Source of the DNA: an uncultured Victivallales bacterium
GTDB taxonomy: Bacteria; Verrucomicrobiota; Kiritimatiellia; UBA8416; CAYSRM01
NCBI GenBank assembly: GCA_964543205.1
Contig: CAZIXB010000002.1
Coordinates: forward strand, 1-38,812
Length of the DNA stretch: 38,812 nt
Direction of reading: 5' to 3'
The position numbers were made by a program, and so were the translations under genes. The notes beneath the pieces are model-generated. The model was not told the origin of the DNA. It did not search any database and saw only the letters and a program-made list of their open reading frames with translations. Position 1 is the stretch's first letter. Each line of letters begins with the position of its first letter. Of this stretch, positions 6,361-37,731 are shown piece by piece.

Positions 6361-6781
6361 CCCCTTCGCCGCCCGGGCGACCGTCCGCACCGTAACTTAT
6401 AATCTCATACGAATGGCCATCTGGACCTGGAACAAGATACGCATACTCGTTTCCCCACGGATCCTTAGGCACATTAGCGCTCCTTAGATACCCGCCGGGG
6501 GGATAATCCGATGGCGCCGGTTCCGCTTCAGGCCGCCTGCACAAAGCTTCCAGGCCCTGCCGCTGGGTAGGCGGAGCGCCATGATTCATGGTATAGTGAT
6601 CAACAGCGTTGGCAAGCATCTCAATTTGCGCCCTCGCTGCAGCGACTTTTGCTTTTGCGGGCTCCTGGCCCACGCGCACTGCAACAATGGTTGCAAGAAT
6701 GCTTATTATAACAATCACGGCAAGAACCTCCAGAAAAGTGAAGCCTTCTCCGGCAGGCCGCTCAAAGAAAAATTTTTTCAT
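6332..6781 (-). CDS. gspG: type II secretion major pseudopilin GspG-like protein
   Basis: Prepilin cleavage/methylation motif G|FTFLEVLAVIVIISILATIV. GspG body motifs are QIEMLANAVDHY, GLEAL and PKDPWGNEYAYLVPG...YGADGRPGG. The ATG at 6781 overlaps the polB stop (ATGA). Confidence 0.85.
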   Translation of the reverse strand: MKKFFFERPAGEGFTFLEVLAVIVIISILATIVAVRVGQEPAKAKVAAARAQIEMLANAVDHYTMNHGAPPTQRQGLEALCRRPEAEPAPSDYPPGGYLRSANVPKDPWGNEYAYLVPGPDGHSYEIISYGADGRPGGEGVNADLSNLE

Positions 6782-9093
6782 AATTCAAACTCCTTTTGTC
6801 GATCTTCAAACATGAATTTTCCGGCAAGCGAGTCAAGCTTGGCAATATAAAAATCCACATTCTCGTCCCTGCACCCTTCCTCAGCCTCGCCAACAAGCTT
6901 AGCCGCCTCATGCACAGCTACGTTTTTCTTCGTCCCTGTCACATAGTACGAAACCTGATCGCCCGCCCTGTATTCTCTGTCCGAACGCAAAGCAAGCTCA
7001 TAAGCTGCGGCTCTGCCCCGTTTACCCTTTTCCACCTTGTTCCTGTAAACCGACGGAGAGTCCCGGAGCATTTCAGTCTTTGCAAGCCTTTCAATCGGCC
7101 AGCGGCTCTCACGTATTGCGGATTCATATTCCTTCTTCAAAGCCGGCACCATCTGTTCCTTGTCTTCCAACAACAATCGTATGGCATCCTTCATGAAATC
7201 CCTCTGAAATGGCTCAAGTCCGCGAGACCTGAGGGCGCCGCCCTTGATTATAACCTCGCCATCGTAAGTCAGAAGCGCATAGTTTTTCATCTTGTAACTG
7301 AACATGCCCTTATATTCACCGTCGAATTCTACTTCAATTCCTTCGGGAAGCCATTTGTGAAACTCCCCTCGAAAGCGCTCTTTTTTCTCCTTGCCCATAT
7401 CCTCAGAACCGCCTGGCGGCACAAAGTAGATTCCGTCGGTATCGATTTCTACAGGCTTCGCGCCGCGACTTCTCATCCATTCTATCATGGATTGGAGAAG
7501 CTCGCGCCCCTCGCGTGTAACTCGAGCAGCCGCATCGTAGTCGTTGAAATGACCCTGCGAAAAACCAAGATAGCCATAAAATGAATTTATAAGAATTTTA
7601 AAAGCCGATTGCGCAGCATCCCAGTAACCGGCTTCGGAACCTGTTTCCGCCCGGCGGGCCATGTCTTTGGCTTTGAATCTCACATCTTTCAAGGCCTTCA
7701 GCATACGGAGAAAAACACCAAGTTTATCGCTGCGAGGACCGATCCCCCTGGTCAACATCAAGGAAGGATAAAGAGAACGGACATCACAGTGGTGAACGTT
7801 GTGAACAACACCCTTTACAAAAACATCAGTGTAACCGCCCTCAAATTTCCTGGCTGTATCCTGCAGAGATATTGCCCGGTCTGCAGCCATATATTCACGG
7901 AGCATCAAAGAATCAATTTTTGTGGCATTGCCCCTTACACAGACATTCTGATAACTGTATGGCAGGAGACCCGCCTGGACAAAATTACTCCTTGAAAGCA
8001 AGGCTGCAAGAGCGCCGGTCTCATAAACGTCGTCAAGAACATACTTGAGTATAAGGTCCGGGTCATCCTTGAATACAGCGCTGATCCGGCTTCCTTCTAT
8101 ATAAGTCCTCCCTTCAGGAGAGAGACCGAAATGCGAAGCCGCATCCTTCAAGCCGTATCCACCCAGCGCCCTGCTTGTTACATCATAAGCGTGAACAAGA
8201 AAAAGCGTATCAACTATGTGCCGTCCGAAAATCTCACAGCGCTCATAAGACAGCGCCCGCTCTGCAACATTAAAGCGGCTTGGCCTGAAATACGGCGCGC
8301 TCCCGTCCCTTCCAATCAAAAGCGGGACGCCGTTTCTCTTTGCCCTTTTCTTTATATAGGGCAAATCAAAGTTGAAAATGTTGTGACCCTCTATAACGTC
8401 AGGATCTCTCTCTACTATCAGTTCAACCATCCGGCGGAGCATTGCAGCTTCATCCATCTCAACAATTGAGAGCGCCTGTTTCCACCCGGAGCTGTCCGCA
8501 AGGCCTATGGCAATGATTTGATCCTCTTCCCTGTCCGCATTGCAAAATTCGAAACCCTCGGCAGTGGCGCATTCAATGTCAATCTGAAGCCTTTTAACAT
8601 CACTGAAATCCAGGCCCCCGAATAAAGTCAAACCTGTATCCATTAGATAAAGCTGCACTGGATCGGAAATCCACAGGTAAGGAGAGCCGGGCGCCGAGGA
8701 AGAAAAACCGGTAGAAGCGGCGAGCCACTTCCGGGCGCTGACACAATCTTTCCAGTTTGCAAAGTAAACCCTGGTATTGAGCGGGGCATCCCCCTCCATG
8801 GACCGGCGCTCATGCTCAACAGGCATCCCTGAAAGAACCTTATCAGAAACAATCATAAACGGACGGAAAGAAACCTCGCTGGTAACAACACGTTCCCCTT
8901 CCCTCACAAAAAGAACCAGATGATCGCCACCGCCACCTTTCCCCTGCACATATTCAACGGCAACAACACCATCCCGGCAAAACCGGCCGGCCAGCAAAGA
9001 CTCCGCCATAGAGCCGTAACCTTCGGCTATGTTTTCCGCATTGCCCGCTGTCATGTTGCCGGCAGTCCCGGCATCAAAAGCATCTTCCACCAT
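6778..9093 (-). CDS. polB: family B DNA polymerase with 3'-5' exonuclease domain
   Basis: Exo I QIDIECA, Exo II HNIFNFDLPYI, Exo III YVLDDVYET. Pol motif A CDVRSLYPSLM, motif B KILINSFYGYLG, motif C VEIDTDGIYF, and KxY as KMKNYAL. The ORF-track start at 9111 is TTG. ATG 9093 is preceded by AAGGA with a 7-nt spacer, so I prefer it. Confidence 0.9.
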   Translation of the reverse strand: MVEDAFDAGTAGNMTAGNAENIAEGYGSMAESLLAGRFCRDGVVAVEYVQGKGGGGDHLVLFVREGERVVTSEVSFRPFMIVSDKVLSGMPVEHERRSMEGDAPLNTRVYFANWKDCVSARKWLAASTGFSSSAPGSPYLWISDPVQLYLMDTGLTLFGGLDFSDVKRLQIDIECATAEGFEFCNADREEDQIIAIGLADSSGWKQALSIVEMDEAAMLRRMVELIVERDPDVIEGHNIFNFDLPYIKKRAKRNGVPLLIGRDGSAPYFRPSRFNVAERALSYERCEIFGRHIVDTLFLVHAYDVTSRALGGYGLKDAASHFGLSPEGRTYIEGSRISAVFKDDPDLILKYVLDDVYETGALAALLSRSNFVQAGLLPYSYQNVCVRGNATKIDSLMLREYMAADRAISLQDTARKFEGGYTDVFVKGVVHNVHHCDVRSLYPSLMLTRGIGPRSDKLGVFLRMLKALKDVRFKAKDMARRAETGSEAGYWDAAQSAFKILINSFYGYLGFSQGHFNDYDAAARVTREGRELLQSMIEWMRSRGAKPVEIDTDGIYFVPPGGSEDMGKEKKERFRGEFHKWLPEGIEVEFDGEYKGMFSYKMKNYALLTYDGEVIIKGGALRSRGLEPFQRDFMKDAIRLLLEDKEQMVPALKKEYESAIRESRWPIERLAKTEMLRDSPSVYRNKVEKGKRGRAAAYELALRSDREYRAGDQVSYYVTGTKKNVAVHEAAKLVGEAEEGCRDENVDFYIAKLDSLAGKFMFEDRQKEFEL

Positions 9094-9119
9094 AAGTGTT
9101 TCCTTATTCAATATGCGGG

Positions 9120-26876: not shown

Positions 26877-26906
26877 TTGTCAACATACAGTTCCCCAACG
26901 CATAAT
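26877..26906 (+). promoter_or_regulatory. candidate sigma70-like promoter for the accD unit
   Basis: TTGTCA (26877-26882), an 18-nt spacer, then CATAAT (26901-26906). The -35 hexamer contains the TTG that the ORF track used as the accD start. Confidence 0.4.
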
Positions 26907-26933
26907 TGCTTGCTTAAAGAAAAAGGTTCCAAA

Positions 26934-27767
26934 ATGGCATGGTTTAGAAAAACACGAAAAGAAAAGCCGACGCCTGAAAAATCCCATATGTGGATGATAT
27001 GCCCGGGCTGCAGCGCACACGTATTCAGGGAAGAATGGAAGAAAACAGACAACGTCTGCCCGAAATGCAATTTCCATGACAAGATTACTGTCCACCAGAG
27101 ACTTGATCAGTTGATCGACAAAGAATCATTTGTGGAGCTGAATCAGAATCTGGCGTTCAATGATCCGCTCTCCTTCGCCGACGCAAGGGGCGCCTACAGT
27201 GAAAAAGCCCGACAGGCCACAGAAAAAACCGGGCTGAAAGAATCAATAGTAACAGGCAAAGCCAAAATGAAGTCTATCCCCGTTGTTATAGGCATCATGG
27301 ACTTCCGGTTCCTTGGAGGCAGCCTGGGCAGCATAACGGGAGAGAAAATACTCCAGGCCATGAATTATGCCCTGAAACATCGCATGCCTTGCATAATGGT
27401 ATGCGCTTCAGGCGGAGCAAGAATGCAGGAAGGCATCATCTCATTAATGCAGATGGGCAAAACGTGCGCGGGGATATCAAGACTGAACGAAGCAGGCATT
27501 CCCTACATCTCTGTCCTGACCCACCCCACCACGGGAGGCGTCTCCGCAAGCTTTGCCATGATGGGAGACATCAATATTGCCGAACCAGGCGTCCTGATAG
27601 GCTTTGCGGGGCGCAGGGTAATCGAACAAACCATTAAACAGAAACTGCCGGATGACTTCCAGACCGCCGAGTACGTGCTGGAACACGGTTTTATTGATCA
27701 CATCGTAGACCGGAAAAACCTGAAAGATTTTATCTGCAACGTATTGAAATATTGGAATGCATCATGA
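26934..27767 (+). CDS. accD: acetyl-CoA carboxylase carboxyltransferase beta subunit
   Basis: N-terminal zinc ribbon CPGCSAHVF...CPKC, then GGSLGS and SGGARMQEG motifs. ATG 26934 (MAWFRKTRKEK) is preferred over TTG 26877. Confidence 0.95.
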   Translation: MAWFRKTRKEKPTPEKSHMWMICPGCSAHVFREEWKKTDNVCPKCNFHDKITVHQRLDQLIDKESFVELNQNLAFNDPLSFADARGAYSEKARQATEKTGLKESIVTGKAKMKSIPVVIGIMDFRFLGGSLGSITGEKILQAMNYALKHRMPCIMVCASGGARMQEGIISLMQMGKTCAGISRLNEAGIPYISVLTHPTTGGVSASFAMMGDINIAEPGVLIGFAGRRVIEQTIKQKLPDDFQTAEYVLEHGFIDHIVDRKNLKDFICNVLKYWNAS

Positions 27768-28183
27768 GCGAAGGTGTCAAAAAAATGAAGCAGAAATTCA
27801 CAGAACTTGAAATCAGCCGGATAAAAACCAAGGCCAAAGCGCTAAGAAATTCGGGGGATACAACAACTCTCGAAAACTCGATAAGAAAACTGGGTTTACT
27901 GTCCCCTCTGATTGTAGACCCTGACAACATTCTTATCTCAGGCTACAGGCGGCTCTCAGCCTGTGACCGAATCGGACTCAAAAGCGTTCCGGTGTTACGC
28001 GTCGATGTTCCGGCAGACAGCATGGAAGCGCTGGACATCCAGACCGATGAGAACCTGTGCAGAAAACCGCTCTCCCACGAGGAACTACAGCAGCATATAC
28101 AGGAAAAAAAACTCCGGATGGAGAAAAACACTGGCAGCAAAGGCTTTGTTGACAAAATCAGAAAAACTTTCTCGCAACACTGA
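27764..28183 (+). CDS. ParB/Srx N-terminal-domain-only protein
   Basis: LENSIRKLGLLSPLIVDPDNILISGYRRLSACDRIGLKSVPVL matches the ParB box I/II region with the GxRR arginine patch. DENLCRKPLSHEEL matches the ENxxR..L.P.E box III. There is no HTH or dimerisation domain. ATG 27764 overlaps the accD TGA (ATGA); the ORF-track start 27752 is TTG. Confidence 0.7.
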   Translation: MSEGVKKMKQKFTELEISRIKTKAKALRNSGDTTTLENSIRKLGLLSPLIVDPDNILISGYRRLSACDRIGLKSVPVLRVDVPADSMEALDIQTDENLCRKPLSHEELQQHIQEKKLRMEKNTGSKGFVDKIRKTFSQH

Positions 28184-28285
28184 TTTAAATTATACGCCTC
28201 GATGCCGGAATAAGGGCAATCCGGGATTCACCGCTCGATAGCGCCGGTGATAGCAAACGGATAATAGAGAAAAGATCAGGTTAAT

Positions 28286-29248
28286 ATGAATCTCGACTTT
28301 GAAAAGGAAATAGCGGAAATAGAAAACAGAATTTCCGAGCTGAAAAAATTAAATGAAAACCCGAACGTTGAGTTCGATACCGAAATAGCTGAACTTGCTC
28401 GCGAACTGGAAGCAAAGACAAAATCAACCTACCGGAATCTTTCCCCATGGCAGACCATACAAATAGCAAGACATCCTGAACGACCGTCCATAAAAGACTA
28501 CGCCAGTGGAGTTTTCGGCGAATTCATAGAGCTGCACGGAGATCGCTGCTTCGGCGACGACCAGGGCATTATAGGCGGTTTTGCCAGCATAAAACAAAGC
28601 AAACACAAAGTTATGCTCATCGGACACCAGAAGGGTAAATCCGTAGAAGAAAACCTCCGAAGCAATTTCGGGATGGCAAACCCCGAAGGCTACCGCAAAG
28701 CCCTGCGGCTGATGAAACTGGCGGAAAAATACAAAATCCCGGTAGTATGCCTGATAGATACCCCCGGGGCCTACCCCGGCGAAGAAGCAGAGGCCCGCGG
28801 CCAGGCCGAGGCCATCGCGCGCAACCTTACGGAGATGTTCAGCATTAAAGTTCCGATTGTAGTAATAGTCACAGGAGAAGGCGGCAGCGGAGGCGCCATC
28901 GGAATCGGCATAGGCGATGCCGTGCTGATGCTTTCAAATGCTGTGTACTCGGTCATATCCCCCGAAGGATGCGCCTCCATATTGTGGCGCGACGGCTCAA
29001 AAGCTTCGGATGCGGCCTCGGCATTGAAAATTACTGCAAAGGATCTCAAAAAACACAATATAATAGACGAAATAATCGAAGAACCCGTCGGCGGAGCACA
29101 CAGGAACCATCAAGCAACATTCGAATCAGTCAGGAAAACTCTCGTGACCCGCCTGACAAGACTTAAAAAAATGTCGTCGAGAAGGCTTTTGGAAAAGAGA
29201 TTTGAAAAATTCGCTTCAATGGGCAGACCTGAAAGAGTCAAACGATAG
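28286..29248 (+). CDS. accA: acetyl-CoA carboxylase carboxyltransferase alpha subunit
   Basis: Motifs RHPERP, IDTPGAYPGEEAEARGQAEAIARNL and GEGGSGGAIGIG. Confidence 0.96.
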   Translation: MNLDFEKEIAEIENRISELKKLNENPNVEFDTEIAELARELEAKTKSTYRNLSPWQTIQIARHPERPSIKDYASGVFGEFIELHGDRCFGDDQGIIGGFASIKQSKHKVMLIGHQKGKSVEENLRSNFGMANPEGYRKALRLMKLAEKYKIPVVCLIDTPGAYPGEEAEARGQAEAIARNLTEMFSIKVPIVVIVTGEGGSGGAIGIGIGDAVLMLSNAVYSVISPEGCASILWRDGSKASDAASALKITAKDLKKHNIIDEIIEEPVGGAHRNHQATFESVRKTLVTRLTRLKKMSSRRLLEKRFEKFASMGRPERVKR

Positions 29249-29264
29249 AAAAGAAGGACTAGAC

Positions 29265-31229
29265 ATGGCCCGATCAAAAAAAGAAGACAGAGGAACCACC
29301 CGGAAATCTAAAAAACAAACTTCCGCTTCCTCTAAAAAAACAACGCCGCTTCGTATCACCGACACCACACTGCGCGATGCCCACCAGTCGCTCTGGGCAA
29401 CCAGGATGCGGACCAGTGACATAGAAGGCATACTGGAAACAATCGATAACGCAGGCTATTACTCTCTCGAAGTCTGGGGCGGAGCAACTTTTGATGTATG
29501 CCTTCGTTTCCTGAGGGAAAACCCATGGGAACGTCTCCGGTTGATGAAATCCAAAGCAAAGAAAACTCCCCTGCAGATGCTTCTCCGCGGTCAGAATATA
29601 CTCGGATACAAGAATTATCCCGACGATCTCCTCGACCGCTTCGTAGCTCTGGCTTGCAAAAACGGGATAGATATTTTCAGAATATTCGACGCGCTTAATG
29701 ATAACAGGAACCTGGAACACGCTATCAAATCCGTCAAAAAACACGGCGGACATGCGCAGGGCACCCTCTGCTATACAATCAGTCCGGTCCATACCGTCAA
29801 CGAGTTCGTGCGTGTGGCTGAAGAACAGGTTCAAATGGGCATCGACTCCCTCTGCATTAAGGATATGGCGGGAATCCTGTCGCCCGTTTCCGCAGAAAAA
29901 CTGGTCTCGGCCCTCACCACGAAACTGGACGTGCCTGTCCAGCTCCATTGCCATATGACAAGCGGTATGGCCGTGGCAACATATACCGAAGGGGTAATGG
30001 CCGGCGCAGGGGCGATCGACTGCGCAATATCGCCTATGTCGGGTTTTTCATCTCAGCCACCGGTAGAAACCATGCTTTCGATATTTGACCAGACCCCGTA
30101 CAATGCACAGCTTGACGTTGATTGCCTACGCAAAATCTGCAAATACTTCGGTAATCTTGCCCCGGAACGGAAATTGTCGCATCAACCCATTAATATCATT
30201 GATCCGGAAATACTTATCCACCACATACCAGGCGGAATGATATCCAACCTGCGTTCACAGCTCGATCAGCAGGATGCATTAGACAGACTTCCCGAAGTCC
30301 TCGATGAAATACCCGAAACCCGAAAAGACATGGGCTATCCTCCGCTGGTAACCCCAACAAGCCAGATAATCGGCATTCAGTCGGTAATGAACATCCTGTC
30401 AGGCGAAAGATACTCAATGGTGCCCCAGGAAACAAAGAATTACATAAAAGGCTTTTACGGAAGACCACCAGCCAAAATCAATCCAAAGTTAAAAAAGAAA
30501 ATACTTGGCGACGAAAAACCGATAACCTGCCGGCCGGCGGATCTGCTAGACCCTATGCTGCCTAACGCAACAGACAATATCGATCCCGTGCTGATAAAGG
30601 AAGAAGAAGATATTATATCCTACTGCCTTTTCCCGGAAACAGCAAAACAATACCTGGAATGGCGCAGTTTGCCCGAAGATCAACGTCCTGAACCGCCAGC
30701 AGAAACCGAGAGAAAACAACATGATGAGGTGGATGAGGTGGATAACAATAGAAATATGGAACCACCGCAAAACGGCAAACCCTTCCTCAATCCTGAAGAC
30801 TACAAGGAATTACACGAAGTCATCGAAAAAGTAAAAGAACTGGGCCTGGACGAACTCACCATCCGCAGGGGAAACGCCAGCCTCAGCCTCAGCGGAGGCG
30901 AGGTTTCACAATCCGCCAACGCACATGCAGAAGAAAAACCGCAAACAGCGAAATCCGAAGAATCAACCAGCGCCAAGACCAAAACAGACGGTCCGGCAAT
31001 CGAAGCGCCGCTAAACGGAACCTTTTACACCTGCCCCGGCCCCGGACAACCCGATTTTACAGCGCCTGGCGACATTGTCGAGCAAGACGAACCGGTTTGT
31101 ATCGTCGAAGCAATGAAGCTCTTCAACCAGATCAAGACCCCTTTCAAATGCAAAATCAGGTCATTTCTTGTCAAGCACGGAGACACCGTGAGCAAAGGGC
31201 AACCACTGATCTCCATTGAACAACTGTAG
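29265..31229 (+). CDS. pyruvate/oxaloacetate carboxyltransferase (5S / OadA / PycB type) fused to a full-length AccB-like biotin carboxyl carrier protein
   Basis: N-domain motifs are TDTTLRDAHQS, CIKDMAG (carbamylated-Lys context) and LHCHMTSG (metal site). The C-terminal ~150 aa align by eye to AccB: EKVKELGLDELTIRRGNASLSLS, a Pro/Ala/Ser/Lys linker, GTFYTCPGPGQPDF, then CIVEAMKLFNQI with the biotinyl-Lys. ATG 29265 has AAGGA 6 nt upstream; the track start 29202 is a TTG inside accA. Confidence 0.85.
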   Translation: MARSKKEDRGTTRKSKKQTSASSKKTTPLRITDTTLRDAHQSLWATRMRTSDIEGILETIDNAGYYSLEVWGGATFDVCLRFLRENPWERLRLMKSKAKKTPLQMLLRGQNILGYKNYPDDLLDRFVALACKNGIDIFRIFDALNDNRNLEHAIKSVKKHGGHAQGTLCYTISPVHTVNEFVRVAEEQVQMGIDSLCIKDMAGILSPVSAEKLVSALTTKLDVPVQLHCHMTSGMAVATYTEGVMAGAGAIDCAISPMSGFSSQPPVETMLSIFDQTPYNAQLDVDCLRKICKYFGNLAPERKLSHQPINIIDPEILIHHIPGGMISNLRSQLDQQDALDRLPEVLDEIPETRKDMGYPPLVTPTSQIIGIQSVMNILSGERYSMVPQETKNYIKGFYGRPPAKINPKLKKKILGDEKPITCRPADLLDPMLPNATDNIDPVLIKEEEDIISYCLFPETAKQYLEWRSLPEDQRPEPPAETERKQHDEVDEVDNNRNMEPPQNGKPFLNPEDYKELHEVIEKVKELGLDELTIRRGNASLSLSGGEVSQSANAHAEEKPQTAKSEESTSAKTKTDGPAIEAPLNGTFYTCPGPGQPDFTAPGDIVEQDEPVCIVEAMKLFNQIKTPFKCKIRSFLVKHGDTVSKGQPLISIEQL

Positions 31230-31278
31230 TTAACCCGCATATCTCACACTTTTCAGGAGTGTGAGATATGCGGGTTAA
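31230..31278. terminator. bidirectional hairpin terminator between convergent genes
   Basis: Perfect 21-bp inverted repeat: TTAACCCGCATATCTCACACT (31230-31250) and AGTGTGAGATATGCGGGTTAA (31258-31278), with a 7-nt loop TTTCAGG. It starts 1 nt after the TAG at 31227-31229. No clear U-tract on either side. Confidence 0.6.
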
Positions 31279-31301: not shown

Positions 31302-31889
31302 TCAAGGCCGTTTTTTGCGGTCAAGGAACAGGTCAAGTTGCTCGTCCCTTATCAAATCATAGTTTTTGAGCAAACGCATAATCTGTAAAAGGTCGGACTT
31401 TCCGTAGTTCCTGTTGACATCAACACTCCTGGCCAATTCCATGAGCATGGTCCCAAAAGTAATCACCCCGTCAATGCCCCTTTCTTTCAACAACTCTACA
31501 CTCCGGGATCTTAAATCCTCCCCCACAGGCAACCGCGGCAAACAAAGAATTCGGGCAAATTTGCCGGTTCCAAGCAGATTTTGAGCATATTGAAGCGCTT
31601 CTTTCTCGGCAAATCGATAAAGATCAGGTTCCTTTTCCAGCCTCGACGGATAAAGCCGCTCCGAGTGCCACCCCTGGATCCCGACAATAGCCCCGGCAAC
31701 AGACCGAAGATCATCTCCTGTCCAGACAAAACTGCCAGCGACACCGTGAGTTGCATTCACCGGCCTGGTCAGGACAAAGTCCACCTCCTCACACGCAGTC
31801 TTGTGCCTGCCGGGAACAGTATGCTTCCTTGGCTGCAACACGTGAAAGCCGTTTAACTCAAAATACTCCCTTACAATTGTCTCGTTCAT
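31302..31889 (-). CDS. hypothetical protein, possible degenerate PD-(D/E)xK-like N-terminal domain
   Basis: No family recognised. The N-terminus IVREYFELNGFHV ... EEVDFVL ... AIVGIQGWH loosely resembles a restriction-endonuclease-like fold, but Q-x-W replaces E-x-K. The track start 31895 is GTG; the ATG is at 31889. Confidence 0.4.
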   Translation of the reverse strand: MNETIVREYFELNGFHVLQPRKHTVPGRHKTACEEVDFVLTRPVNATHGVAGSFVWTGDDLRSVAGAIVGIQGWHSERLYPSRLEKEPDLYRFAEKEALQYAQNLLGTGKFARILCLPRLPVGEDLRSRSVELLKERGIDGVITFGTMLMELARSVDVNRNYGKSDLLQIMRLLKNYDLIRDEQLDLFLDRKKRP

Positions 31890-31928
31890 ACCCACGACAA
31901 ATCGATTCCTCCATGTATAAAACCGGAA

Positions 31929-33029
31929 TTACATATCTGCGTATACATCAGACAACAAACCCTCTTCCACAACGCATCCCACACAAACCCGGCCAAGACT
32001 TTCAACCAGGGTGAACCTTGGAACACTGCCCAACGCCTTCTTGTCTCTGGTCATGGCCTGCCGAATCTGTTCCCACCCTGGTTTTCCGCCGTTTTCCGCA
32101 GGCGATACAGGCAGCTTCAACCCGGAAAGCAAACGCTTTATGCGGTCCGCATCTTTTTTGGAAAACCCCCTGGTCTCTGTAGCCAGATCAGCCGCATATG
32201 CCATCCCCGCAGCAACAGCTTCACCATGAAGATACTTGCCGTATCCGGCCACCTTCTCAAGCGCGTGGCCAAGCGTGTGCCCGAAATTCAAAGCAGCCCT
32301 CACCCCCGATTCCCGCTCATCCATGGCAACCACTTCTGCCTTGATCTCACACGAGCGAGTAATTACTTCCTGCAGAAAAACAGGATCCCGCTCGACAAGC
32401 CGCTCCGCTCCCGACTCCAGATTCCTGAACAGCTCAGCATCCCATATCACCGCATGCTTAACCAGTTCAGCCAGCCCGGATAGATATTCTTTCTCCGGAA
32501 GCGATACAAGAGTTGAAAGGTCGATGGCAACCTCCACAGGCTGATAGAAAGCTCCTACCAGATTTTTGCCTTCCTCCATGTTCAAACCAGTCTTCCCTCC
32601 CACCGAGCTGTCCAGCATGGCAAGCGTGGTAGTAGGCGCCTGCACATAACGTATACCCCGAAGATAAGTGGCGGCAACAAAGCCAGCAAGATCGCCTATA
32701 ACCCCGCCGCCAAGAGCAAAAATAAAAGAGGATCTGTCAAGTCCGGCTTCAATCGCTTTAGAATATAATGCCCCGGCACAGGACAGATTTTTAGACGCCT
32801 CGCCGGCGGGAACCTTCTCCCTGCGCACGTTGAAACCCAGCGCGCCAATTCGCCTTTCAAAAACATCTCCGTAAATTGCATCCACATTGCTGTCAGAGAT
32901 TATCAATGCTCGCAACCCGTCGACCCTGTCACAATATCCGGCTCCCGGCGTCAAATCTGCGCCTATGCGAATATCGTAACTTCTGTCACCAAGGAGCGCT
33001 TTCACTATGCTGCAATTCTCAGTCACCAT
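31929..33029 (-). CDS. aroB: 3-dehydroquinate synthase
   Basis: Motifs GGGVIGDLAGF, GGKTG, NFGHTLGHALE and HGEAVAAG. The track start 33050 is TTG. ATG 33029 is preceded by GGAAGGAGAGAGGA. Confidence 0.93.
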   Translation of the reverse strand: MVTENCSIVKALLGDRSYDIRIGADLTPGAGYCDRVDGLRALIISDSNVDAIYGDVFERRIGALGFNVRREKVPAGEASKNLSCAGALYSKAIEAGLDRSSFIFALGGGVIGDLAGFVAATYLRGIRYVQAPTTTLAMLDSSVGGKTGLNMEEGKNLVGAFYQPVEVAIDLSTLVSLPEKEYLSGLAELVKHAVIWDAELFRNLESGAERLVERDPVFLQEVITRSCEIKAEVVAMDERESGVRAALNFGHTLGHALEKVAGYGKYLHGEAVAAGMAYAADLATETRGFSKKDADRIKRLLSGLKLPVSPAENGGKPGWEQIRQAMTRDKKALGSVPRFTLVESLGRVCVGCVVEEGLLSDVYADM

Positions 33030-33966
33030 GAATCCTCTCTCCTTCCGCAATTCTCAAGCCCCGGGCAAACTCTGCCCCGGACATTTCTCTTTTTCCAGCA
33101 GGCTTAACCCTGAGCAGGCATACAGAATCATCTCCCCCGGAAACAGCGCCTGTCTTTATCACCAGGGAATTCCTTCCCGACTCCAACACCGTGCCGGCAA
33201 CCGCATCAGCCGAACCCGACCGCATCCCGGCAACTTCAAGGAGGACAACCCGGCGGCCTTTTAAATTACAATACGCTCCAGGCCATGGCGTAAATGCCCG
33301 CACCCTGTTGTAAATATCTTCCGCCTCCATATCCCATGATATCAAACCGTCTTTCTTGCTCAAACGCGGCGCATAAGTGGCCAGGCTTTCATCCTGGGGC
33401 CTGCGCGGCGCTATACCGCTTTCGACATCCTTAACAGTCTGCTCCAACAATTCTCCGCCTGGCGCAGCCAGTCTGTCCATGAGCTCCCCGGCATTTTCTC
33501 CGTTTTTAATCTCAACTTTCAACTGATAAATAACATCCCCGGCATCCATCCTGTCATCCATGTGCATTGTTGTAAGGCCGGTCTGGCGCCGGCCATCAAG
33601 CAGCGCATGCTGAATAGGCGCCGCGCCACGGTATTCCGGAAGAAGCGAAGCATGAAGGTTAATGCAGCCCAAAGAAGGAAGCTGTAGCACAGCTTTCTTC
33701 AGAATCTGTCCATACGCAACCACCGCTATCAGATCAGGAGCAAGGCGCTCAAGTTCTTTTATGCTGTCTGCCGAGTTTACGTTCTCAGGGGTCAAAACAG
33801 GCAGCCCTAAATCTTCGGCAGTAACCCTGAGTGCGCTGGGAGAAGGTATAAGCTTCCTGCCACTGGGCCTGTCGGGCTGGGTTACCACCCCGACTATGCT
33901 TTCACCACTCAAGGCGCGCAGACTCTCACAGGCAAATCCGGCCGATCCCATGAAGACAATTCTCAT
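33019..33966 (-). CDS. fmt: methionyl-tRNA formyltransferase
   Basis: MRIVFMGSAGFA, HASLLPEYRGAAPIQ, and a C-terminal Fmt domain. Its 3' end overlaps the aroB start by 11 nt. Confidence 0.94.
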   Translation of the reverse strand: MRIVFMGSAGFACESLRALSGESIVGVVTQPDRPSGRKLIPSPSALRVTAEDLGLPVLTPENVNSADSIKELERLAPDLIAVVAYGQILKKAVLQLPSLGCINLHASLLPEYRGAAPIQHALLDGRRQTGLTTMHMDDRMDAGDVIYQLKVEIKNGENAGELMDRLAAPGGELLEQTVKDVESGIAPRRPQDESLATYAPRLSKKDGLISWDMEAEDIYNRVRAFTPWPGAYCNLKGRRVVLLEVAGMRSGSADAVAGTVLESGRNSLVIKTGAVSGGDDSVCLLRVKPAGKREMSGAEFARGLRIAEGERIHGD

Positions 33967-33996
33967 GTATCAAGCTCCCTCTGTCATCTCACGCCG

Positions 33997-34569
33997 TTAC
34001 CCGCGCAATATGGTCTCAAGAATTCGTTCAGACTTCTCAGCTATATCATCATGAAGACTGCAGCCGTCCGAATCAATGGTTACAATGCCTTCCATCCCCT
34101 CAACATCAAGCTCCCACATGGCTTCGGCCGGTCCAAAGCGATCCAGATAATGCACGCCGCAGACATCAACAATCCGTTCGGCCAGCGCCGCCCCTGCGCC
34201 CCCGACAACATGTACATACACGCAGCCATGACGTCTGCATGCCTCTATGGTAGCTTTGTGCATTCCTCCCTTGCCGATAATAACACGCACACCATGACGC
34301 CTGATAACTTCAGCCATAAAAGGCTCCTGGCGCGAAGAAGTGGTCGGACCAGCCGCGCTGATAACCCACCTGCCGGAACGAAGAACAGCAACAGGCCCGC
34401 AATGATAAATTGCGCCGTCCCTCATATCCACAGGCGCTTTATCCTCGCCCGCCAGTTCCTCGTGAACACGGTCGCGTCCTGTAACAATCCTCCCCGATAA
34501 ACTGATGCGGTCGGATGCGCTCAAAGACCTCACTGCGTTTTCTTTAAATGGATACCTAAGATTATTCAT
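33997..34569 (-). CDS. class I (Fe-S) fumarate/tartrate hydro-lyase, beta subunit
   Basis: Motifs SGRIVTGRD, HCGP, IIGKGGM and VHVVGGAGAL are typical of the FumA C-terminal / TtdB domain. The track start 34584 is GTG. ATG 34569 is preceded by GGGAG. Confidence 0.85.
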   Translation of the reverse strand: MNNLRYPFKENAVRSLSASDRISLSGRIVTGRDRVHEELAGEDKAPVDMRDGAIYHCGPVAVLRSGRWVISAAGPTTSSRQEPFMAEVIRRHGVRVIIGKGGMHKATIEACRRHGCVYVHVVGGAGAALAERIVDVCGVHYLDRFGPAEAMWELDVEGMEGIVTIDSDGCSLHDDIAEKSERILETILRG

Positions 34570-34642
34570 CACTACTCCCGGCACGGACGGGCTTTGTGCC
34601 TGCGCTTCTCAGCTGCCCGCCGCTCGCCGCATTCACCTCAGC

Positions 34643-35527
34643 CTAAAAAAACCATCTGTCTACGCCACCCTCAACTCCGAGCCGTACCCCTCGTCTGCGT
34701 AACGCCCAGCACATGTAAGAAACGGAAACAAAAAAACTCGCAGGCAACCGGCCAAGGGAAGCGATCTTGACGTCCAGCAAAGTGGTCTTACCCCCAAGCC
34801 CCATTGGTCCGATCTTTAACTCATTTGCGCAATTCAAACACTCTTTCTCAAGTTCAGAAAGCGCCTTGGTTCGAGATCGCCGTCCAATCCTTCTTAGAAA
34901 CTGCTCTTTCGAATAAGCATAGCCCGTAGCCCGATCCCCGCCGATACATACCCCGAGCGCTCCGGGAGAACAACCGCGGCCCTGTGTCTGCCAGACCGCG
35001 TCTAGAATGCACTTGCGCACACCTTCAAGGTTCCGCCCGGCCCCAAGCCGGGAATCAGGCAGAGAATATTGCCTGCCGACATTTTCACTCCCGCCACCTT
35101 TCAGAATTAAACGAACGTCTACGGTCTTCCGGGCGCCCTGGCAAACTTCCACTTGCGGCACACCGTTTGCTATGTTCGTGCTGTACAGGCCGCCGGTAAT
35201 TGCGTCAACCGTGTTTTCCCTTAAATAACCATATCGCGTTGCGCGGGCCACAGCCGAACGCACCGAGGAAACAAGCATGTTGGAATCAAAACCAACTGGA
35301 ACACTGAAGTAAAACATAACAGTCCCAGTATCCTGGCAAATCGGCCTGTTTTTTTCCCTGGCTATCCGGGCATCCTCAAGCATGGTTGACAATGCCCAGT
35401 ATGCCATGCTTCCCTTGTTTTCCTTTTCAAGCGCGGCACGCAAGGCTTTTTCCACATCCCGCGGCAAATCCGTCGAGGTGCGCCGAATTAATTCAAGCAG
35501 GTTCTTTTCAAATTTCTTTTTACTCAT
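34643..35527 (-). CDS. class I (Fe-S) fumarate/tartrate hydro-lyase, alpha subunit
   Basis: Contains the CQDTG motif, GGGSEN, and the Cys ligands typical of the FumA N-terminal / TtdA domain. The track start 35536 is TTG; the ATG is at 35527. Confidence 0.85.
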   Translation of the reverse strand: MSKKKFEKNLLELIRRTSTDLPRDVEKALRAALEKENKGSMAYWALSTMLEDARIAREKNRPICQDTGTVMFYFSVPVGFDSNMLVSSVRSAVARATRYGYLRENTVDAITGGLYSTNIANGVPQVEVCQGARKTVDVRLILKGGGSENVGRQYSLPDSRLGAGRNLEGVRKCILDAVWQTQGRGCSPGALGVCIGGDRATGYAYSKEQFLRRIGRRSRTKALSELEKECLNCANELKIGPMGLGGKTTLLDVKIASLGRLPASFFVSVSYMCWALRRRGVRLGVEGGVDRWFF

Positions 35528-35570
35528 GGCGCTCAATTTCGTACAGGCTAGACTCTCCCCTTCTCATCAC

Positions 35571-36425
35571 TCACGCCGCAGCTCGAACAGTCTCCGCCCT
35601 ACGGCGAAGCAAAACCAGGATATCATCGGGCACCACCAGACCCCCGAAACCCCGGCCAAGCTTGATCCCCGGATTAGCATCCCCGTGAAAATCCGATCCG
35701 CCTGTCTTCACCAGGTCATAACGTTCAGCAAGCTTCTCACATTGCTTCACATAAGCCTGGCTGTGTTCGGAATAGTATACTTCTATTCCCTGTAACCCGA
35801 TTTTTGCCAGACTTCCAACGTAGTCATCAAGTTCATGGTCAGAAATATCAAGAGTAAACGGATGCGCAAGCACAGCCACACCCCCCGCTCCGGCAATAAC
35901 ATCCACACTCTCGGCGGGACTCAACCTGAACCTGTCCGCATAGGCAGATTTACCCCTGGCAAGATATCTGTCAAAGGCTTCCTTCTTCGATCCTACAAAG
36001 CCGCGTTCAACCATAGCCTGCGAAAAATGCGGGCGGCCAATAACATCCTCCCCGGCATATGAACTGACTTCCTCCCACGATAAATCCATTCCAAGTTTAT
36101 TCAGCTTTTTGAGAATCTTTCCATTCCTTATTTCCCTGCCGTTCCTTATCTCTTTTAGAACTGACTGCAATCGCTCATTTTCCCTTTCTATGTAGTACCC
36201 AAGCATATGCAGTGTGCCCTTTGGAACCTCCGCGCTGATCTCAACGCCGGGAACACACTCCACACCAGTTCCGCGGCAAGCCGCACTGAAAGAAGATAAC
36301 CCGTCGGTGCAATCATGATCAGTTAAAGCTATCGCAGTTAAACCAACCTCTTTCGCAAGCTGCACCAGTTCAGGAGGCCTCAAACTTCCATCCGAATAGG
36401 TCGAGTGTGTATGCAAATCAATCAT
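35571..36425 (-). CDS. PHP-domain phosphoesterase (TrpH/YciV-like)
   Basis: MIDLHTHSTYSDGS, ALTDHD, VLAHP and GGSDFHG. The ORF track begins at ATG 36494. ATG 36425 is preceded by AAAGGACAGGA and gives the family-typical N-terminus. Confidence 0.85.
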   Translation of the reverse strand: MIDLHTHSTYSDGSLRPPELVQLAKEVGLTAIALTDHDCTDGLSSFSAACRGTGVECVPGVEISAEVPKGTLHMLGYYIERENERLQSVLKEIRNGREIRNGKILKKLNKLGMDLSWEEVSSYAGEDVIGRPHFSQAMVERGFVGSKKEAFDRYLARGKSAYADRFRLSPAESVDVIAGAGGVAVLAHPFTLDISDHELDDYVGSLAKIGLQGIEVYYSEHSQAYVKQCEKLAERYDLVKTGGSDFHGDANPGIKLGRGFGGLVVPDDILVLLRRRAETVRAAA

Positions 36426-36507
36426 TAGCTCATCCTGTCCTTTCATCTGCCGATAACTCAATTCATCCGCCCGGTCAATACTCTGGCGAAACATACAAAC
36501 CCGCCAT

Positions 36508-37044: not shown

Positions 37045-37731
37045 TTATCCCTCAGTCCTGTAACTCCCCGCTACATCCAATTCCTTAACAGACTCAAAAT
37101 AACCTGCAATAGCTTTATCATATTCCGCGGTATGAGCGAATGCTTTCCTTGCCAGCCTGAACCTTGTACCCAGGCAAAGCTTCCCATAGTTGTCAGACAA
37201 TTCCTGTACTATCCCGGCGTAATCCCCCGGATCCGTTACAGAAGCAACCCGAAGAAAATTCTTGGCCGCCGCGCGCACCATACACGGGCCGCCTATGTCA
37301 ATATTAGTTCTTGCCATCTCAGGGGTCACGTTGGATGCCCCCACTGTCTCCTTGAACGGATAGAGATTCGCTGCAACCATGTCAATAGAAACACCGCCAA
37401 CCCTGGAAAGATCTTTGGCATGCGCCTCATTATATGTTTCGCTTAACAAGCCGAGATAAATCTTAAAATCAAGAGTTTTAACAAGTCCGCCCTGCATCTC
37501 CGGCTGCCCTGTGTATGCAGAAACCGAGACAAGATTTCTATCTTTCTGTTCAGGCGTAAGCGAGGCTTCAATAACACGGTATGTGCCACCTGTTGAATAA
37601 AACACCACGTCCGGATTAATATCTATCATGGAGCTGACAAATTCCTCCACCCCAGTCTTGTCAGAACAACTTACAAGAATATGCCGCACCCTGATTTCAT
37701 CGTCAATCCGCTCTACAATATTTAATGCCAT
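37045..37731 (-). CDS. stand-alone IMP cyclohydrolase / MGS-like domain (PurH N-terminal domain only)
   Basis: By eye it aligns to the first ~200 aa of PurH: ILVSCSDKTGVEEF, STGGT, VKTL, ANLYPF, NIDIGGPCMVRAAAKNF, RFRLARKAFAHTAEYDKAIAGYF. It ends where the AICAR transformylase domain would begin. A strong SD, AAGGAGG, precedes the start. Confidence 0.8.
   Translation of the reverse strand: MALNIVERIDDEIRVRHILVSCSDKTGVEEFVSSMIDINPDVVFYSTGGTYRVIEASLTPEQKDRNLVSVSAYTGQPEMQGGLVKTLDFKIYLGLLSETYNEAHAKDLSRVGGVSIDMVAANLYPFKETVGASNVTPEMARTNIDIGGPCMVRAAAKNFLRVASVTDPGDYAGIVQELSDNYGKLCLGTRFRLARKAFAHTAEYDKAIAGYFESVKELDVAGSYRTEG

What the first reader, a model, noticed from the sequence alone, without database searches (positions are those of the whole stretch)
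26877..31229. accD - parB(N) - accA - (5S carboxyltransferase::AccB) unit: candidate ATP-independent oxaloacetate:acetyl-CoA transcarboxylase
Seen in sequence:
- Four co-directional genes have junctions of -4, +102 and +16 nt.
- There is one sigma70-like promoter upstream and one perfect 21-bp hairpin downstream, so this looks like a single transcription unit.
- The last gene carries the hallmark residues of the pyruvate/oxaloacetate carboxyltransferase domain (TDTTLRDAHQS, CIKDMAG, LHCHMTSG).
- It ends in a complete AccB-type BCCP with the biotinyl-Lys motif EAMKL.
- No biotin carboxylase (accC) and no free accB occur in the window.

Established knowledge:
- AccA/AccD move CO2 from carboxybiotinyl-BCCP to acetyl-CoA.
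- 5S / OadA-type domains exchange CO2 between oxaloacetate and biotinyl-BCCP without ATP. Known examples are the Propionibacterium 12S-5S-1.3S transcarboxylase and the Na+-translocating oxaloacetate decarboxylase.

Inference:
- Tethering an ACC-type carrier to an oxaloacetate carboxyltransferase inside the accDA operon would allow oxaloacetate + acetyl-CoA -> pyruvate + malonyl-CoA.
- That would be an ATP-sparing route to malonyl-CoA, located a few hundred bp from the fab/acpP cluster.

The trivial alternative is a PycB/OadA subunit that merely sits next to accA.
Basis: partly seen in the sequence, partly recalled or inferred. Interest (0 to 1): 0.7.

Follow-up and report, generated by a model that had tools for sequence, protein, structure and literature searches.

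The report
Biotin carrier fused to oxaloacetate carboxyltransferase
In this uncultured PVC-group (probably Kiritimatiellota) bacterium the biotin carrier protein of acetyl-CoA carboxylase exists only as the tail of a pyruvate/oxaloacetate carboxyltransferase encoded in the accD-accA operon, so one swinging biotin can probably serve both enzymes; this conserved arrangement, uncharacterised in the literature I could search, could let cells make malonyl-CoA from oxaloacetate without ATP.

Summary
The four-gene unit is real. It comprises accD (26934-27767), a ParB-N-only protein (27764-28183), accA (28286-29248) and a 654-aa fusion (29265-31229).

The fusion is more than an ordinary PycB/OadA. Its last ~150 residues are a complete AccB, with the N-terminal domain, a linker and a thumb-bearing biotinyl domain.

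Main findings:
- accD-accA-fusion is co-conserved in 35 of 37 informative PVC-clade loci, in different flanking contexts.
- The ParB-N gene sits between accD and accA in a subclade and was seen nowhere else.
- AccB-tailed carboxyltransferases group apart from classic PycB/OadA/5S in a rough tree.
- In Firmicutes, including Carboxydothermus hydrogenoformans, the same fusion occupies the accB slot of the conserved spoIIIA-accB-accC-asp23 synteny, next to a biotin carboxylase.
- No oadB or biotin carboxylase lies within about 10 kb of any PVC-clade locus.

I could not test whether accC or a free accB exists elsewhere in these genomes.

Best reading: the fusion is the ACC carrier, shared by AccAD, its own oxaloacetate/pyruvate carboxyltransferase domain and probably AccC. 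Oxaloacetate:acetyl-CoA transcarboxylation would then be a built-in capacity. An obligate, ATP-independent enzyme is not shown. This is a new variant of known enzymes.

The parts
26877..26906 (+). sigma-70-like hexamer pair (TTGTCA-18-CATAAT) upstream of accD
   Evidence: 10 of 12 consensus positions match. The number of such sites in the region equals the shuffle expectation (5 found, 5.4 expected). This is a weak lead only.
26934..27767 (+). accD, the carboxyltransferase beta subunit of acetyl-CoA carboxylase, with an N-terminal zinc ribbon
   Evidence: TIGR00515 at 362 bits (cutoff 317). Carboxyl_trans plus Zn_ribbon_ACC. Homologue alignments start at this ATG.
27764..28183 (+). 139-aa ParB N-terminal-domain-only protein whose start overlaps the accD stop (ATGA); conserved between accD and accA in a subclade
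   Evidence: PF02195 is the only domain, and the GxRRxxA and ENLCR motifs are invariant; the AF2 model (pLDDT 80) matches CTP-bound ParB N-domains and PadC. The position between accD and accA is shown by tblastn and by gene tables. There is no HTH.
28286..29248 (+). accA, the carboxyltransferase alpha subunit of acetyl-CoA carboxylase
   Evidence: NF004344 at 473 bits (cutoff 357) and TIGR00513 at 431 bits. PF03255, full length.
29265..31229 (+). 654-aa fusion of a pyruvate/oxaloacetate carboxyltransferase with a full-length AccB
   Evidence: PRK09282 scores 763 bits. oadA TIGR01108 scores 686, below its 756.5 cutoff. The fusion is conserved at 64-96% identity in more than 120 protein clusters.
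29349..30719 (+). carboxyltransferase domain (residues 29-485; TIM barrel plus PYC_OADA domain) with metal and carbamyl-lysine motifs
   Evidence: 472 bits to V. cholerae OadA (2NX9), 449 to M. flagellatus PycB (5KS8), 417 to the 5S subunit (1RQB). D33, K199, H228 and H230 are invariant in 13 sequences.
30783..30899 (+). AccB N-terminal domain (residues ~507-545; DYKELHEVIEKVKELGLDELTIRR...), followed by a low-complexity linker
   Evidence: aligns with E. coli AccB from Asp2 onward. D512, Y513, L526 and E530 are invariant; classic PycB/OadA have no such domain at this position.
30990..31226 (+). thumb-bearing biotinyl domain (residues 576-654); the biotinyl lysine K618 in EAMKL is encoded at 31116-31118
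   Evidence: the spacing from the P-x-x-G motif to the biotinyl Lys is 36 residues in nearly every AccB-tailed protein that could be scored, and 29 in classic PycB/OadA.
31230..31278 (.). 20-bp perfect inverted repeat with a 9-nt spacer, between the convergent fusion gene and ORF 31302-31895(-)
   Evidence: free energy -37.8 kcal/mol, z = -9.7, unique in the window, no U-tract.

Best explanation
The unit encodes the carboxyltransferase half of acetyl-CoA carboxylase (AccD, AccA) together with that enzyme's biotin carrier. In this lineage the carrier exists only as the C-terminal part of a pyruvate/oxaloacetate carboxyltransferase. One tethered biotin can then visit three stations:
1. its own 5S/PycB-type carboxyltransferase domain (oxaloacetate + biotin <-> pyruvate + carboxybiotin);
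2. AccAD (carboxybiotin + acetyl-CoA -> malonyl-CoA);
3. most probably a biotin carboxylase, AccC, encoded elsewhere (ATP + bicarbonate -> carboxybiotin).

The complex would therefore be a shared-carrier acetyl-CoA/pyruvate carboxylase. Because both carboxyltransferase half-reactions are reversible, it would also be able to pass CO2 from oxaloacetate to acetyl-CoA without ATP.

Shown here: the domain anatomy, the invariance of the active-site motifs, the AccB identity of the tail, co-conservation with accDA, and the accB-slot synteny in Firmicutes.

Inferred: that the carrier actually docks on AccAD, that AccC exists in these PVC genomes, that the keto acid is pyruvate/oxaloacetate, and which direction carries flux in vivo.

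In a subclade, a ParB-N-type (CTP-binding-fold) small protein is an added, conserved member of the operon. Its role is unknown and may be regulatory.
For: AccB identity of the tail:
- end-to-end match to E. coli AccB, including the N-domain and thumb.
- thumb spacing is 36 residues in nearly every AccB-tailed protein that could be scored, against 29 in classic PycB/OadA.

Catalytic competence of the carboxyltransferase domain:
- D33, K199, H228 and H230, and the RDAHQS, KDMAG and HxH motifs, are invariant.

Co-conservation with accDA:
- accA lies directly upstream in 35 of 37 informative full-tail PVC-clade loci.
- The flanks differ between loci: a fab cluster, tuf/rpl genes, ftsK, his genes.

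Distinct subfamily:
- AccB-tailed proteins cluster apart from classic PycB/OadA/5S.

The fusion is the AccB orthologue by position in Firmicutes:
- the order is spoIIIA - fusion - biotin carboxylase - asp23 (- nusB - xseAB in C. hydrogenoformans CP000141.1).
- This matches the conserved accBC-yqhY(asp23) operon described in bioRxiv 10.1101/2024.02.19.580884.
- NCBI names many members 'ACC biotin carboxyl carrier protein'.

No stand-alone AccB of this type:
- the closest short proteins among 1.84 billion representatives that I examined (3 of 3) are fragments or frameshift splits of fusions.

Not an OAD pump:
- no oadB in any PVC-clade flank.
- the score is below the oadA cutoff.
Against: - No biotin carboxylase was found in 762 kb of PVC-clade flanking DNA, and I could not search whole genomes. 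The AccC partner is therefore assumed.
- A divergent free AccB elsewhere cannot be excluded.
- Co-transcription and physical interaction are untested. The promoter call is at chance level.
- A nested group of PVC relatives has shorter or divergent tails and no accDA linkage, so the linkage is not universal.
- Substrate specificity of the carboxyltransferase domain cannot be read from sequence here. One relative carries a truncated UniRef name that appears to begin '2-o...', which I read as possibly 2-oxoglutarate carboxylase.
Confidence: 0.55

Rival explanations
1. Obligate ATP-independent oxaloacetate:acetyl-CoA transcarboxylase. These bacteria have no biotin carboxylase. All malonyl-CoA carboxyl groups come from oxaloacetate through the fusion and AccAD, in analogy to the 12S-5S-1.3S transcarboxylase.
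For: - No biotin carboxylase in the window or within about 10 kb of any of 78 PVC-clade loci.
- The operon contains exactly the three parts such an enzyme needs.
- Both half-reactions are established activities of the parent families (my own knowledge).
- Of the named members listed, most belong to taxa I know as strict anaerobes, for which saving one ATP per malonyl-CoA would matter.
Against: - Absence from about 20 kb around a gene says almost nothing about a genome of several Mb.
- The same fusion in Firmicutes is adjacent to a biotin carboxylase.
- The AccB N-terminal domain, which E. coli AccB needs for complex formation with AccC (my own knowledge), is conserved in the PVC fusions.
- Victivallis vadensis was scored positive for an ACC biotin carboxylase in PMC3199775, supplementary file 2.
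Confidence: 0.07
2. Ordinary two-subunit pyruvate carboxylase beta subunit (PycB) that happens to lie next to accDA. A canonical accB-accC pair elsewhere serves ACC, and the biotin carboxylase (PycA or AccC) serves PycB.
For: -: full-length match to the 'pyruvate carboxylase subunit B' model PRK09282.
- Carboxyltransferase plus BCCP is the standard PycB layout.
- Some PVC relatives carry the gene away from accDA.
Against: - The carrier is a full AccB (N-domain plus thumb). Classic PycB carries a thumbless carrier instead.
- Linkage to accDA persists across 55-96% identity and changing flanks.
- In Firmicutes the fusion replaces accB in the accBC-asp23 operon.
- No free AccB of this type was found.
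Confidence: 0.15
3. Alpha subunit of a Na+-translocating oxaloacetate decarboxylase, with OadB and OadG encoded elsewhere.
For: - The best solved relative of the carboxyltransferase domain is V. cholerae OadA.
- JGI and some NCBI records name members 'oxaloacetate decarboxylase alpha'.
Against: - oadA equivalog TIGR01108 scores 686, below its 756.5 cutoff.
- OadB is adjacent only in true OAD loci (L071, L083, L054, L044, L080, L065) and in no PVC, Firmicutes-fusion or WOR-3 locus.
- The region where OadA and classic PycB carry a short beta-hairpin-like motif is occupied by the AccB N-domain. Assigning that motif to the OadA association domain is from my own knowledge.
Confidence: 0.04
4. The carboxyltransferase domain is a non-catalytic scaffold or keto-acid sensor attached to AccB. 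It would, for example, dimerise the carrier or tune ACC to pyruvate/oxaloacetate levels. No carboxyl transfer to or from a keto acid takes place.
For: AccB normally relies on its N-terminal part for oligomerisation and regulation (my own knowledge), and fusion partners can take over such roles. No activity data exist.
Against: The metal ligands, the carbamylated-lysine motif and the substrate-binding RDAHQS motif are invariant across the family, and about 69% of alignment columns are conserved. That is the pattern of an active enzyme.
Confidence: 0.08

Closest known systems
Multi-subunit bacterial acetyl-CoA carboxylase (E. coli AccA/AccD/AccB/AccC)
   Same: AccA and AccD pass the equivalog models. 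The carrier has the AccB N-domain, linker, thumb and (E)AMK motif. In Firmicutes the gene sits in the accB-accC-asp23 operon.
   Different: AccB is not a free ~16-kDa protein. It forms the C-terminus of a ~500-residue pyruvate/oxaloacetate carboxyltransferase. In PVC bacteria it is encoded after accD-accA and not with accC. A subclade has an extra ParB-N gene inside the operon.
Two-subunit pyruvate carboxylase beta subunit (PycB; e.g. Methylobacillus flagellatus 5KS8)
   Same: Same carboxyltransferase fold and catalytic motifs (449 bits). The layout is a carboxyltransferase followed by a C-terminal biotin carrier. A separate biotin carboxylase subunit is expected.
   Different: The carrier is AccB-type (thumb and N-domain), whereas PycB has a thumbless carrier. 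There is no pycA next to the gene in PVC loci; it is linked to accDA instead. It forms a clade apart from classic PycB.
Propionibacterium transcarboxylase (12S-5S-1.3S, EC 2.1.3.1)
   Same: A 5S-type keto-acid carboxyltransferase (417 bits to 1RQB), an acyl-CoA carboxyltransferase and one biotin carrier would give ATP-independent carboxyl exchange between oxaloacetate and an acyl-CoA.
   Different: The acyl-CoA carboxyltransferase is AccA/AccD, not a 12S PccB-type hexamer. The carrier is AccB-type and covalently fused to the 5S-like domain. It scores below the 5S equivalog cutoff (497 against 827). A biotin carboxylase partner is likely.
Na+-translocating oxaloacetate decarboxylase alpha subunit (OadA; Vibrio cholerae 2NX9)
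   Same: Closest solved carboxyltransferase domain (472 bits). The first half-reaction (oxaloacetate to carboxybiotin) is the one needed for transcarboxylation.
   Different: No OadB or OadG in any related locus. Below the oadA cutoff. The tail is AccB-type.
ParB N-terminal CTPase domain / PadC (for the 139-aa protein)
   Same: The fold and the GxRRxxA and ENLxR nucleotide-binding motifs match. The model superposes on CTP/CDP-bound M. xanthus ParB at about 2.9 A over ~99 residues, and matches PadC 6RYK.
   Different: No HTH DNA-binding domain and no C-terminal dimerisation domain. Encoded only between accD and accA in every context I examined; no parA was seen in those contexts.

Membership tests
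Multi-subunit acetyl-CoA carboxylase (AccABCD) | AccA and AccD carboxyltransferase subunits; AccD has a Zn ribbon | tested here: met
   TIGR00515 at 362 (cutoff 317) and NF004344 at 473 (cutoff 357). CPGC...CPKC.
Multi-subunit acetyl-CoA carboxylase (AccABCD) | AccB-type carrier: N-terminal domain, flexible linker, thumb-bearing biotinyl domain, AMK biotinylation motif | tested here: met
   The match is full length, but TIGR00531 scores 90.7, below its 115.2 cutoff, and the carrier is present only as a fusion.
Multi-subunit acetyl-CoA carboxylase (AccABCD) | Biotin carboxylase AccC in the same genome | not testable with these tools
   None in the window or in 762 kb of related flanks. In Firmicutes relatives a biotin carboxylase is adjacent.
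Two-subunit pyruvate carboxylase, subunit B | Keto-acid carboxyltransferase domain with Asp/His/His metal site and carbamylated Lys | tested here: met
   D33, K199, H228 and H230 are invariant.
Two-subunit pyruvate carboxylase, subunit B | Short thumbless BCCP preceded by a short beta-hairpin-like motif | tested here: not met
   thumb spacing is 36, not 29, and an AccB N-domain replaces the hairpin motif.
Two-subunit pyruvate carboxylase, subunit B | Partner biotin carboxylase subunit (PycA), usually adjacent | tested here: not met
   Adjacency is absent in all PVC-clade loci. Presence elsewhere in the genome was not testable.
Oxaloacetate decarboxylase Na+ pump, alpha subunit | Passes the oadA equivalog model; OadB/OadG partners | tested here: not met
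   686 against a 756.5 cutoff. OadB lies only beside classic OadA loci.
Methylmalonyl-CoA:pyruvate transcarboxylase (12S-5S-1.3S) | 5S subunit equivalog, 12S PccB-type carboxyltransferase, free 1.3S carrier | tested here: not met
   NF008984 scores 497 against an 827 cutoff. The acyl-CoA carboxyltransferase is AccAD. The carrier is fused and AccB-type.
Methylmalonyl-CoA:pyruvate transcarboxylase (12S-5S-1.3S) | Works without a biotin carboxylase or ATP | not testable with these tools
   Needs whole-genome gene content and enzyme assays.
ParB/Srx superfamily, CTP-binding N-domain | ParB_N fold with GxxRxxA and ENxxR motifs | tested here: met
ParB partition proteins | HTH parS-binding domain, C-terminal dimerisation domain, ParA partner | tested here: not met
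   The protein is 139 aa with only PF02195. TIGR00180 scores 41.5, below its 58.45 cutoff.

The most novel reading that the evidence does not exclude
In energy-limited anaerobes of several phyla (Kiritimatiellota/Lentisphaerota, Desulfotomaculia-type and Thermincola-type Firmicutes, some Actinomycetota, WOR-3), fusing AccB to an oxaloacetate carboxyltransferase creates a physiological ATP-sparing route. PEP carboxykinase would make oxaloacetate while conserving ATP. The fusion would then hand that carboxyl group through AccAD to acetyl-CoA. Malonyl-CoA for lipid synthesis would thus cost no ATP, and AccC would be only a back-up. In the PVC subclade, the operon-embedded ParB-N protein would act as a CTP-dependent switch that couples this supply to phospholipid synthesis.
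Probability: 0.25. Interest if true: 0.85.

Novelty: new variant of a known kind. Interest (0 to 1): 0.62.

Why it matters
Malonyl-CoA synthesis is regarded as almost exclusively the ATP-dependent AccABCD reaction. Here the only recognisable ACC carrier is covalently tied to an oxaloacetate/pyruvate carboxyltransferase.

That arrangement links fatty-acid initiation physically to the PEP-pyruvate-oxaloacetate node. By established half-reaction chemistry it also gives the complex a transcarboxylase capacity.

The idea is directly testable in cultured organisms with complete genomes, such as Carboxydothermus hydrogenoformans and Desulfofundulus kuznetsovii. If transcarboxylation is real it would be:
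- a natural counterpart of engineered ATP-saving malonyl-CoA routes;
- a correction to annotations that currently call these proteins OadA, PycB or AccB interchangeably.

The ParB-N protein locked inside an acc operon is a second, unexplained lead on ACC regulation.

Tried and rejected
1. Finding accC, free accB or oadB in genomes that carry the unit.
They gave flanks only.
- The window's own contig is not in the contig index.
- No PVC chromosome is held among the 'plasmids'. Only a Neochlamydia replicon was found, with the classical rpe-efp-accB-accC order.
- A biotin carboxylase query against the protein database was judged pointless, because only the 120 hits nearest the query are listed.

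2. Searching for a stand-alone AccB of the fusion type. All three candidates I examined were fragments or frameshift splits of fusions.

3. Literature.
- Nothing on this fusion or on an oxaloacetate:acetyl-CoA transcarboxylase.
- The only 'alternative malonyl-CoA route' paper concerns an oxaloacetate dehydrogenase.
- The Kiritimatiellota genome papers do not mention biotin enzymes.

4. The OAD-pump reading was rejected (no OadB nearby; below the model cutoff).

5. The promoter evidence was discounted (chance level). The 102-nt gap between the ParB-N gene and accA was not followed up, because in relatives the two genes abut or overlap.

Full report
**1. Observation**

The region holds four co-directional ORFs:
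- accD, 26934-27767. The maximal ORF starts at TTG 26877, but homologue alignments begin at ATG 26934.
- A 139-aa ParB-N protein, 27764-28183. Its start overlaps the accD stop (ATGA).
- accA, 28286-29248, after a 102-nt gap.
- A 654-aa gene, 29265-31229, after a 16-nt gap.

Profile searches agree with these assignments:
- AccD and AccA pass NCBI's equivalog cutoffs (362 against 317; 473 against 357).
- The small protein has only PF02195.
- The last protein has HMGL-like, PYC_OADA and Biotin_lipoyl domains. It matches the 'pyruvate carboxylase subunit B' model end to end (763 bits).
- It falls below the oadA (686 against 756.5) and 5S (497 against 827) equivalog cutoffs.

All the quoted motifs are present.

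The downstream hairpin is real. It has 20 perfect base pairs plus loop-proximal pairs, a free energy of -37.8 kcal/mol and z = -9.7. It is unique in the window and has no U-tract.

The promoter match is at chance level.

A Pfam scan of the other 30 large ORFs and tblastn with E. coli AccB/AccC and a Marinobacter OadB found no accC, free accB or oadB in the window.

The fab genes are on the other strand. accD lies 325 nt from rsmD, about 2.2 kb from plsX and about 6 kb from acpP.

**2. What the last gene is**

A carboxyltransferase followed by a BCCP is the normal PycB/OadA layout, so the fusion as such is not unusual. The kind of carrier is what is unusual.
- The last ~150 residues align with full-length E. 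coli AccB, from Asp2 to the C-terminus (E 6e-15). This includes the N-terminal domain and the 'thumb'.
- The carriers of transcarboxylase 1.3S, PCC and PYC reach only 1e-5 to 1e-6, and only over the last ~55 residues.
- A simple metric separates the two kinds. The spacing from the P-x-x-G motif to the biotinyl lysine is 36 residues in the window, in PVC relatives and in a Firmicutes/Actinomycetota/WOR-3 set. It is 29 in classic PycB/OadA.
- Where classic proteins carry a short beta-hairpin-like motif before the carrier, these proteins carry the AccB N-domain.

The carboxyltransferase part is closest to V. cholerae OadA, M. flagellatus PycB and the 5S subunit (472, 449 and 417 bits). It keeps D33, K199, H228 and H230 invariant in 13 sequences.

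**3. Conservation of the unit**

Homologues (64-96% identity, all about 650 aa) come from Kiritimatiellia, Lentisphaerae and Verrucomicrobiota MAGs. They are named PycB, OadA or AccB, depending on the source.

Context was examined through contig look-ups, a sample of species-representative genomes and a metagenome scan seeded with the tail. All were analysed by tblastn.
- Of 37 PVC-clade loci with a full AccB tail and at least 1.2 kb of upstream DNA, 35 have accA directly upstream. accD lies before accA in those loci that extend far enough. The script counted 32; I added L011, L012 and L014, which it had mis-scored.
- The exceptions are L102 and L122.
- The surroundings differ between loci: a fab-plsX cluster, tuf/ribosomal genes, ftsK or his genes. 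The unit itself is therefore what is conserved.
- A nested group has short or divergent tails and is mostly unlinked to accDA (L015, L017, L018, L135, L141 and others).
- No biotin carboxylase and no OadB occurs in 762 kb of PVC-clade flanks. OadB lies next to classic OadA only (L071, L083, L054, L044, L080, L065).

**4. The Firmicutes counterpart**

A rough neighbour-joining tree of the carboxyltransferase domain puts all AccB-tailed proteins in two neighbouring clades: Firmicutes/Actinomycetota, and WOR-3 plus PVC. Both stand apart from classic PycB/OadA/5S.

In the Firmicutes clade a biotin carboxylase follows the fusion immediately. That enzyme is 54-59% identical to E. coli AccC.
- In Thermincola the order is spoIIIAB...AF - fusion - biotin carboxylase - asp23.
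- The same pattern holds in Desulfosporosinus and other loci.
- In the complete genome of Carboxydothermus hydrogenoformans Z-2901 the order is spoIIIAA-AH - fusion - biotin carboxylase - asp23 - asp23-like - DUF2273 - nusB ... xseA - xseB.
- The accBC-yqhY(asp23) operon is described as conserved in Firmicutes (bioRxiv 10.1101/2024.02.19.580884). From my own knowledge of the B. subtilis map, spoIIIA precedes it there.

The fusion therefore occupies the accB position next to accC. RefSeq calls many of these proteins 'acetyl-CoA carboxylase biotin carboxyl carrier protein'.

**5. Is there a separate AccB?**

I searched the tail exhaustively against 1.84 billion representative proteins. Several short proteins with the fusion-specific motifs came up. 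All three that I examined are artefacts:
- a frameshifted long-read contig with accA and the carboxyltransferase upstream;
- a gene overlapped by a 485-aa upstream gene;
- an ORF open to the contig end that continues into carboxyltransferase sequence.

Among the listed representatives, proteins that look like genuine free AccBs are about 41-45% identical or less. This does not exclude a divergent free AccB in these genomes.

**6. Biotin carboxylase**

I found no way to interrogate a whole genome that carries the PVC-type unit. The indirect evidence favours a biotin carboxylase partner:
- The fusion is adjacent to accC in Firmicutes.
- The AccB N-domain is conserved in the PVC fusions (D512, Y513, L526 and E530 invariant). 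From my own knowledge, that domain is needed for AccB-AccC complex formation in E. coli.
- Lombard and Moreira (PMC3199775, supplementary file 2) scored Victivallis vadensis positive for ACC biotin carboxylase, alpha and beta subunits. A Victivallales MAG (L008) carries the unit.
- A chlamydial replicon shows the classical rpe-efp-accB-accC order.

**7. Mechanism**

Established enzymology (my own knowledge) supplies the two half-reactions:
- AccAD catalyses reversible carboxyl transfer between carboxybiotin and acetyl-CoA.
- OadA/5S/PycB domains catalyse reversible transfer between oxaloacetate and biotin.

If one carrier reaches both sites, then oxaloacetate + acetyl-CoA <-> pyruvate + malonyl-CoA follows, whether or not a biotin carboxylase is also present. 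By my recollection the two decarboxylation free energies are similar, so direction would be set by mass action.

My best reading (0.55) is a shared-carrier complex:
- AccC charges the biotin.
- The biotin can then carboxylate acetyl-CoA on AccAD, or pyruvate on its own domain.
- Oxaloacetate is an alternative, ATP-free carboxyl donor.

The obligate, carboxylase-free version gets 0.07. The 'ordinary PycB beside accA' reading gets 0.15. A non-catalytic carboxyltransferase domain gets 0.08. An OAD pump subunit gets 0.04.

**8. The ParB-N protein**

- It belongs to a small family: 19 hits in the word-indexed search, 128-142 aa, PF02195 only.
- Every context I examined places it between accD and accA and before the fusion, down to 41% identity and in different flanks.
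- GxRRxxA and ENLCR are invariant.
- The AlphaFold model (pLDDT 80) superposes on CTP/CDP-bound ParB N-domains at about 2.9 A, and matches PadC.
- It has no DNA-binding domain.

Its role is unknown. A nucleotide-dependent regulatory or assembly function on ACC is speculation.

**9. Comparison and novelty**

The system works like a hybrid of AccABCD, two-subunit pyruvate carboxylase and the 12S-5S-1.3S transcarboxylase.
- It fails the defining tests for OadA, the 5S subunit and classic PycB.
- It meets those for AccA, AccD and, as a fusion, AccB.

The architecture is present in public annotation, under conflicting names. I found no functional description in the literature I could search. Multiple BCCP-carboxyltransferase fusion and fission events had been noted in general terms (Jordan et al. 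2003, as cited in PMC3199775).

I rate it a new variant of a known kind, with interest 0.62.

Noticed in passing
window 27764-28183; L007, L090, L099, L100, L106, L119, L173-L178: A ParB N-domain-only protein with conserved CTP-binding-type motifs lies between accD and accA in every context examined. It is an unexplained, conserved passenger of the acc operon in one PVC subclade.
   Followed up: yes
L180 (Carboxydothermus hydrogenoformans CP000141.1, 1778100-1795953); L019-L026: Cultured Firmicutes with complete genomes carry the same carboxyltransferase::AccB fusion in the accB slot (spoIIIA - fusion - accC - asp23 - nusB). Databases name it AccB, OadA or PycB inconsistently.
   Followed up: partly
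L015, L017, L018, L135, L141, L154, L163 and others: A nested PVC group has the same carboxyltransferase and a thumb-bearing biotinyl domain. Its N-domain is missing or divergent, and it usually has no accDA linkage. Its partners are unknown; nothing relevant lies next to L017.
   Followed up: partly
L170 (ENA contig_54003), L171, L172: Apparent 'free AccB' proteins in the big protein libraries are frameshift or contig-edge fragments of fusions. This is a caution for anyone counting accB genes in MAGs.
   Followed up: yes
window 31230-31278: A very stable 20-bp perfect hairpin lies between convergent genes. It has no U-tract on either strand and does not recur elsewhere in the window. Its function (terminator or RNA stabiliser) is open.
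   Followed up: partly
window 31302-36494; L004 12059-17391: The downstream block is conserved with a 65%-identical relative. It comprises an unknown ~200-aa protein, aroB, fmt, class-I fumarase beta and alpha subunits, and a PHP protein. Fumarase next to an oxaloacetate-handling enzyme may or may not be meaningful.
   Followed up: no
window 37045-37731 (-): A 228-aa PurH-like protein has only the MGS/IMP-cyclohydrolase part and the first ~60 residues of the AICARFT domain. A gene of the same size is present in L004, so it appears to be a truncated or split purH.
   Followed up: no
window 6778-9111 (-): A family-B DNA polymerase gene (777 aa) lies between an inositol monophosphatase and lptD.
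   Followed up: no
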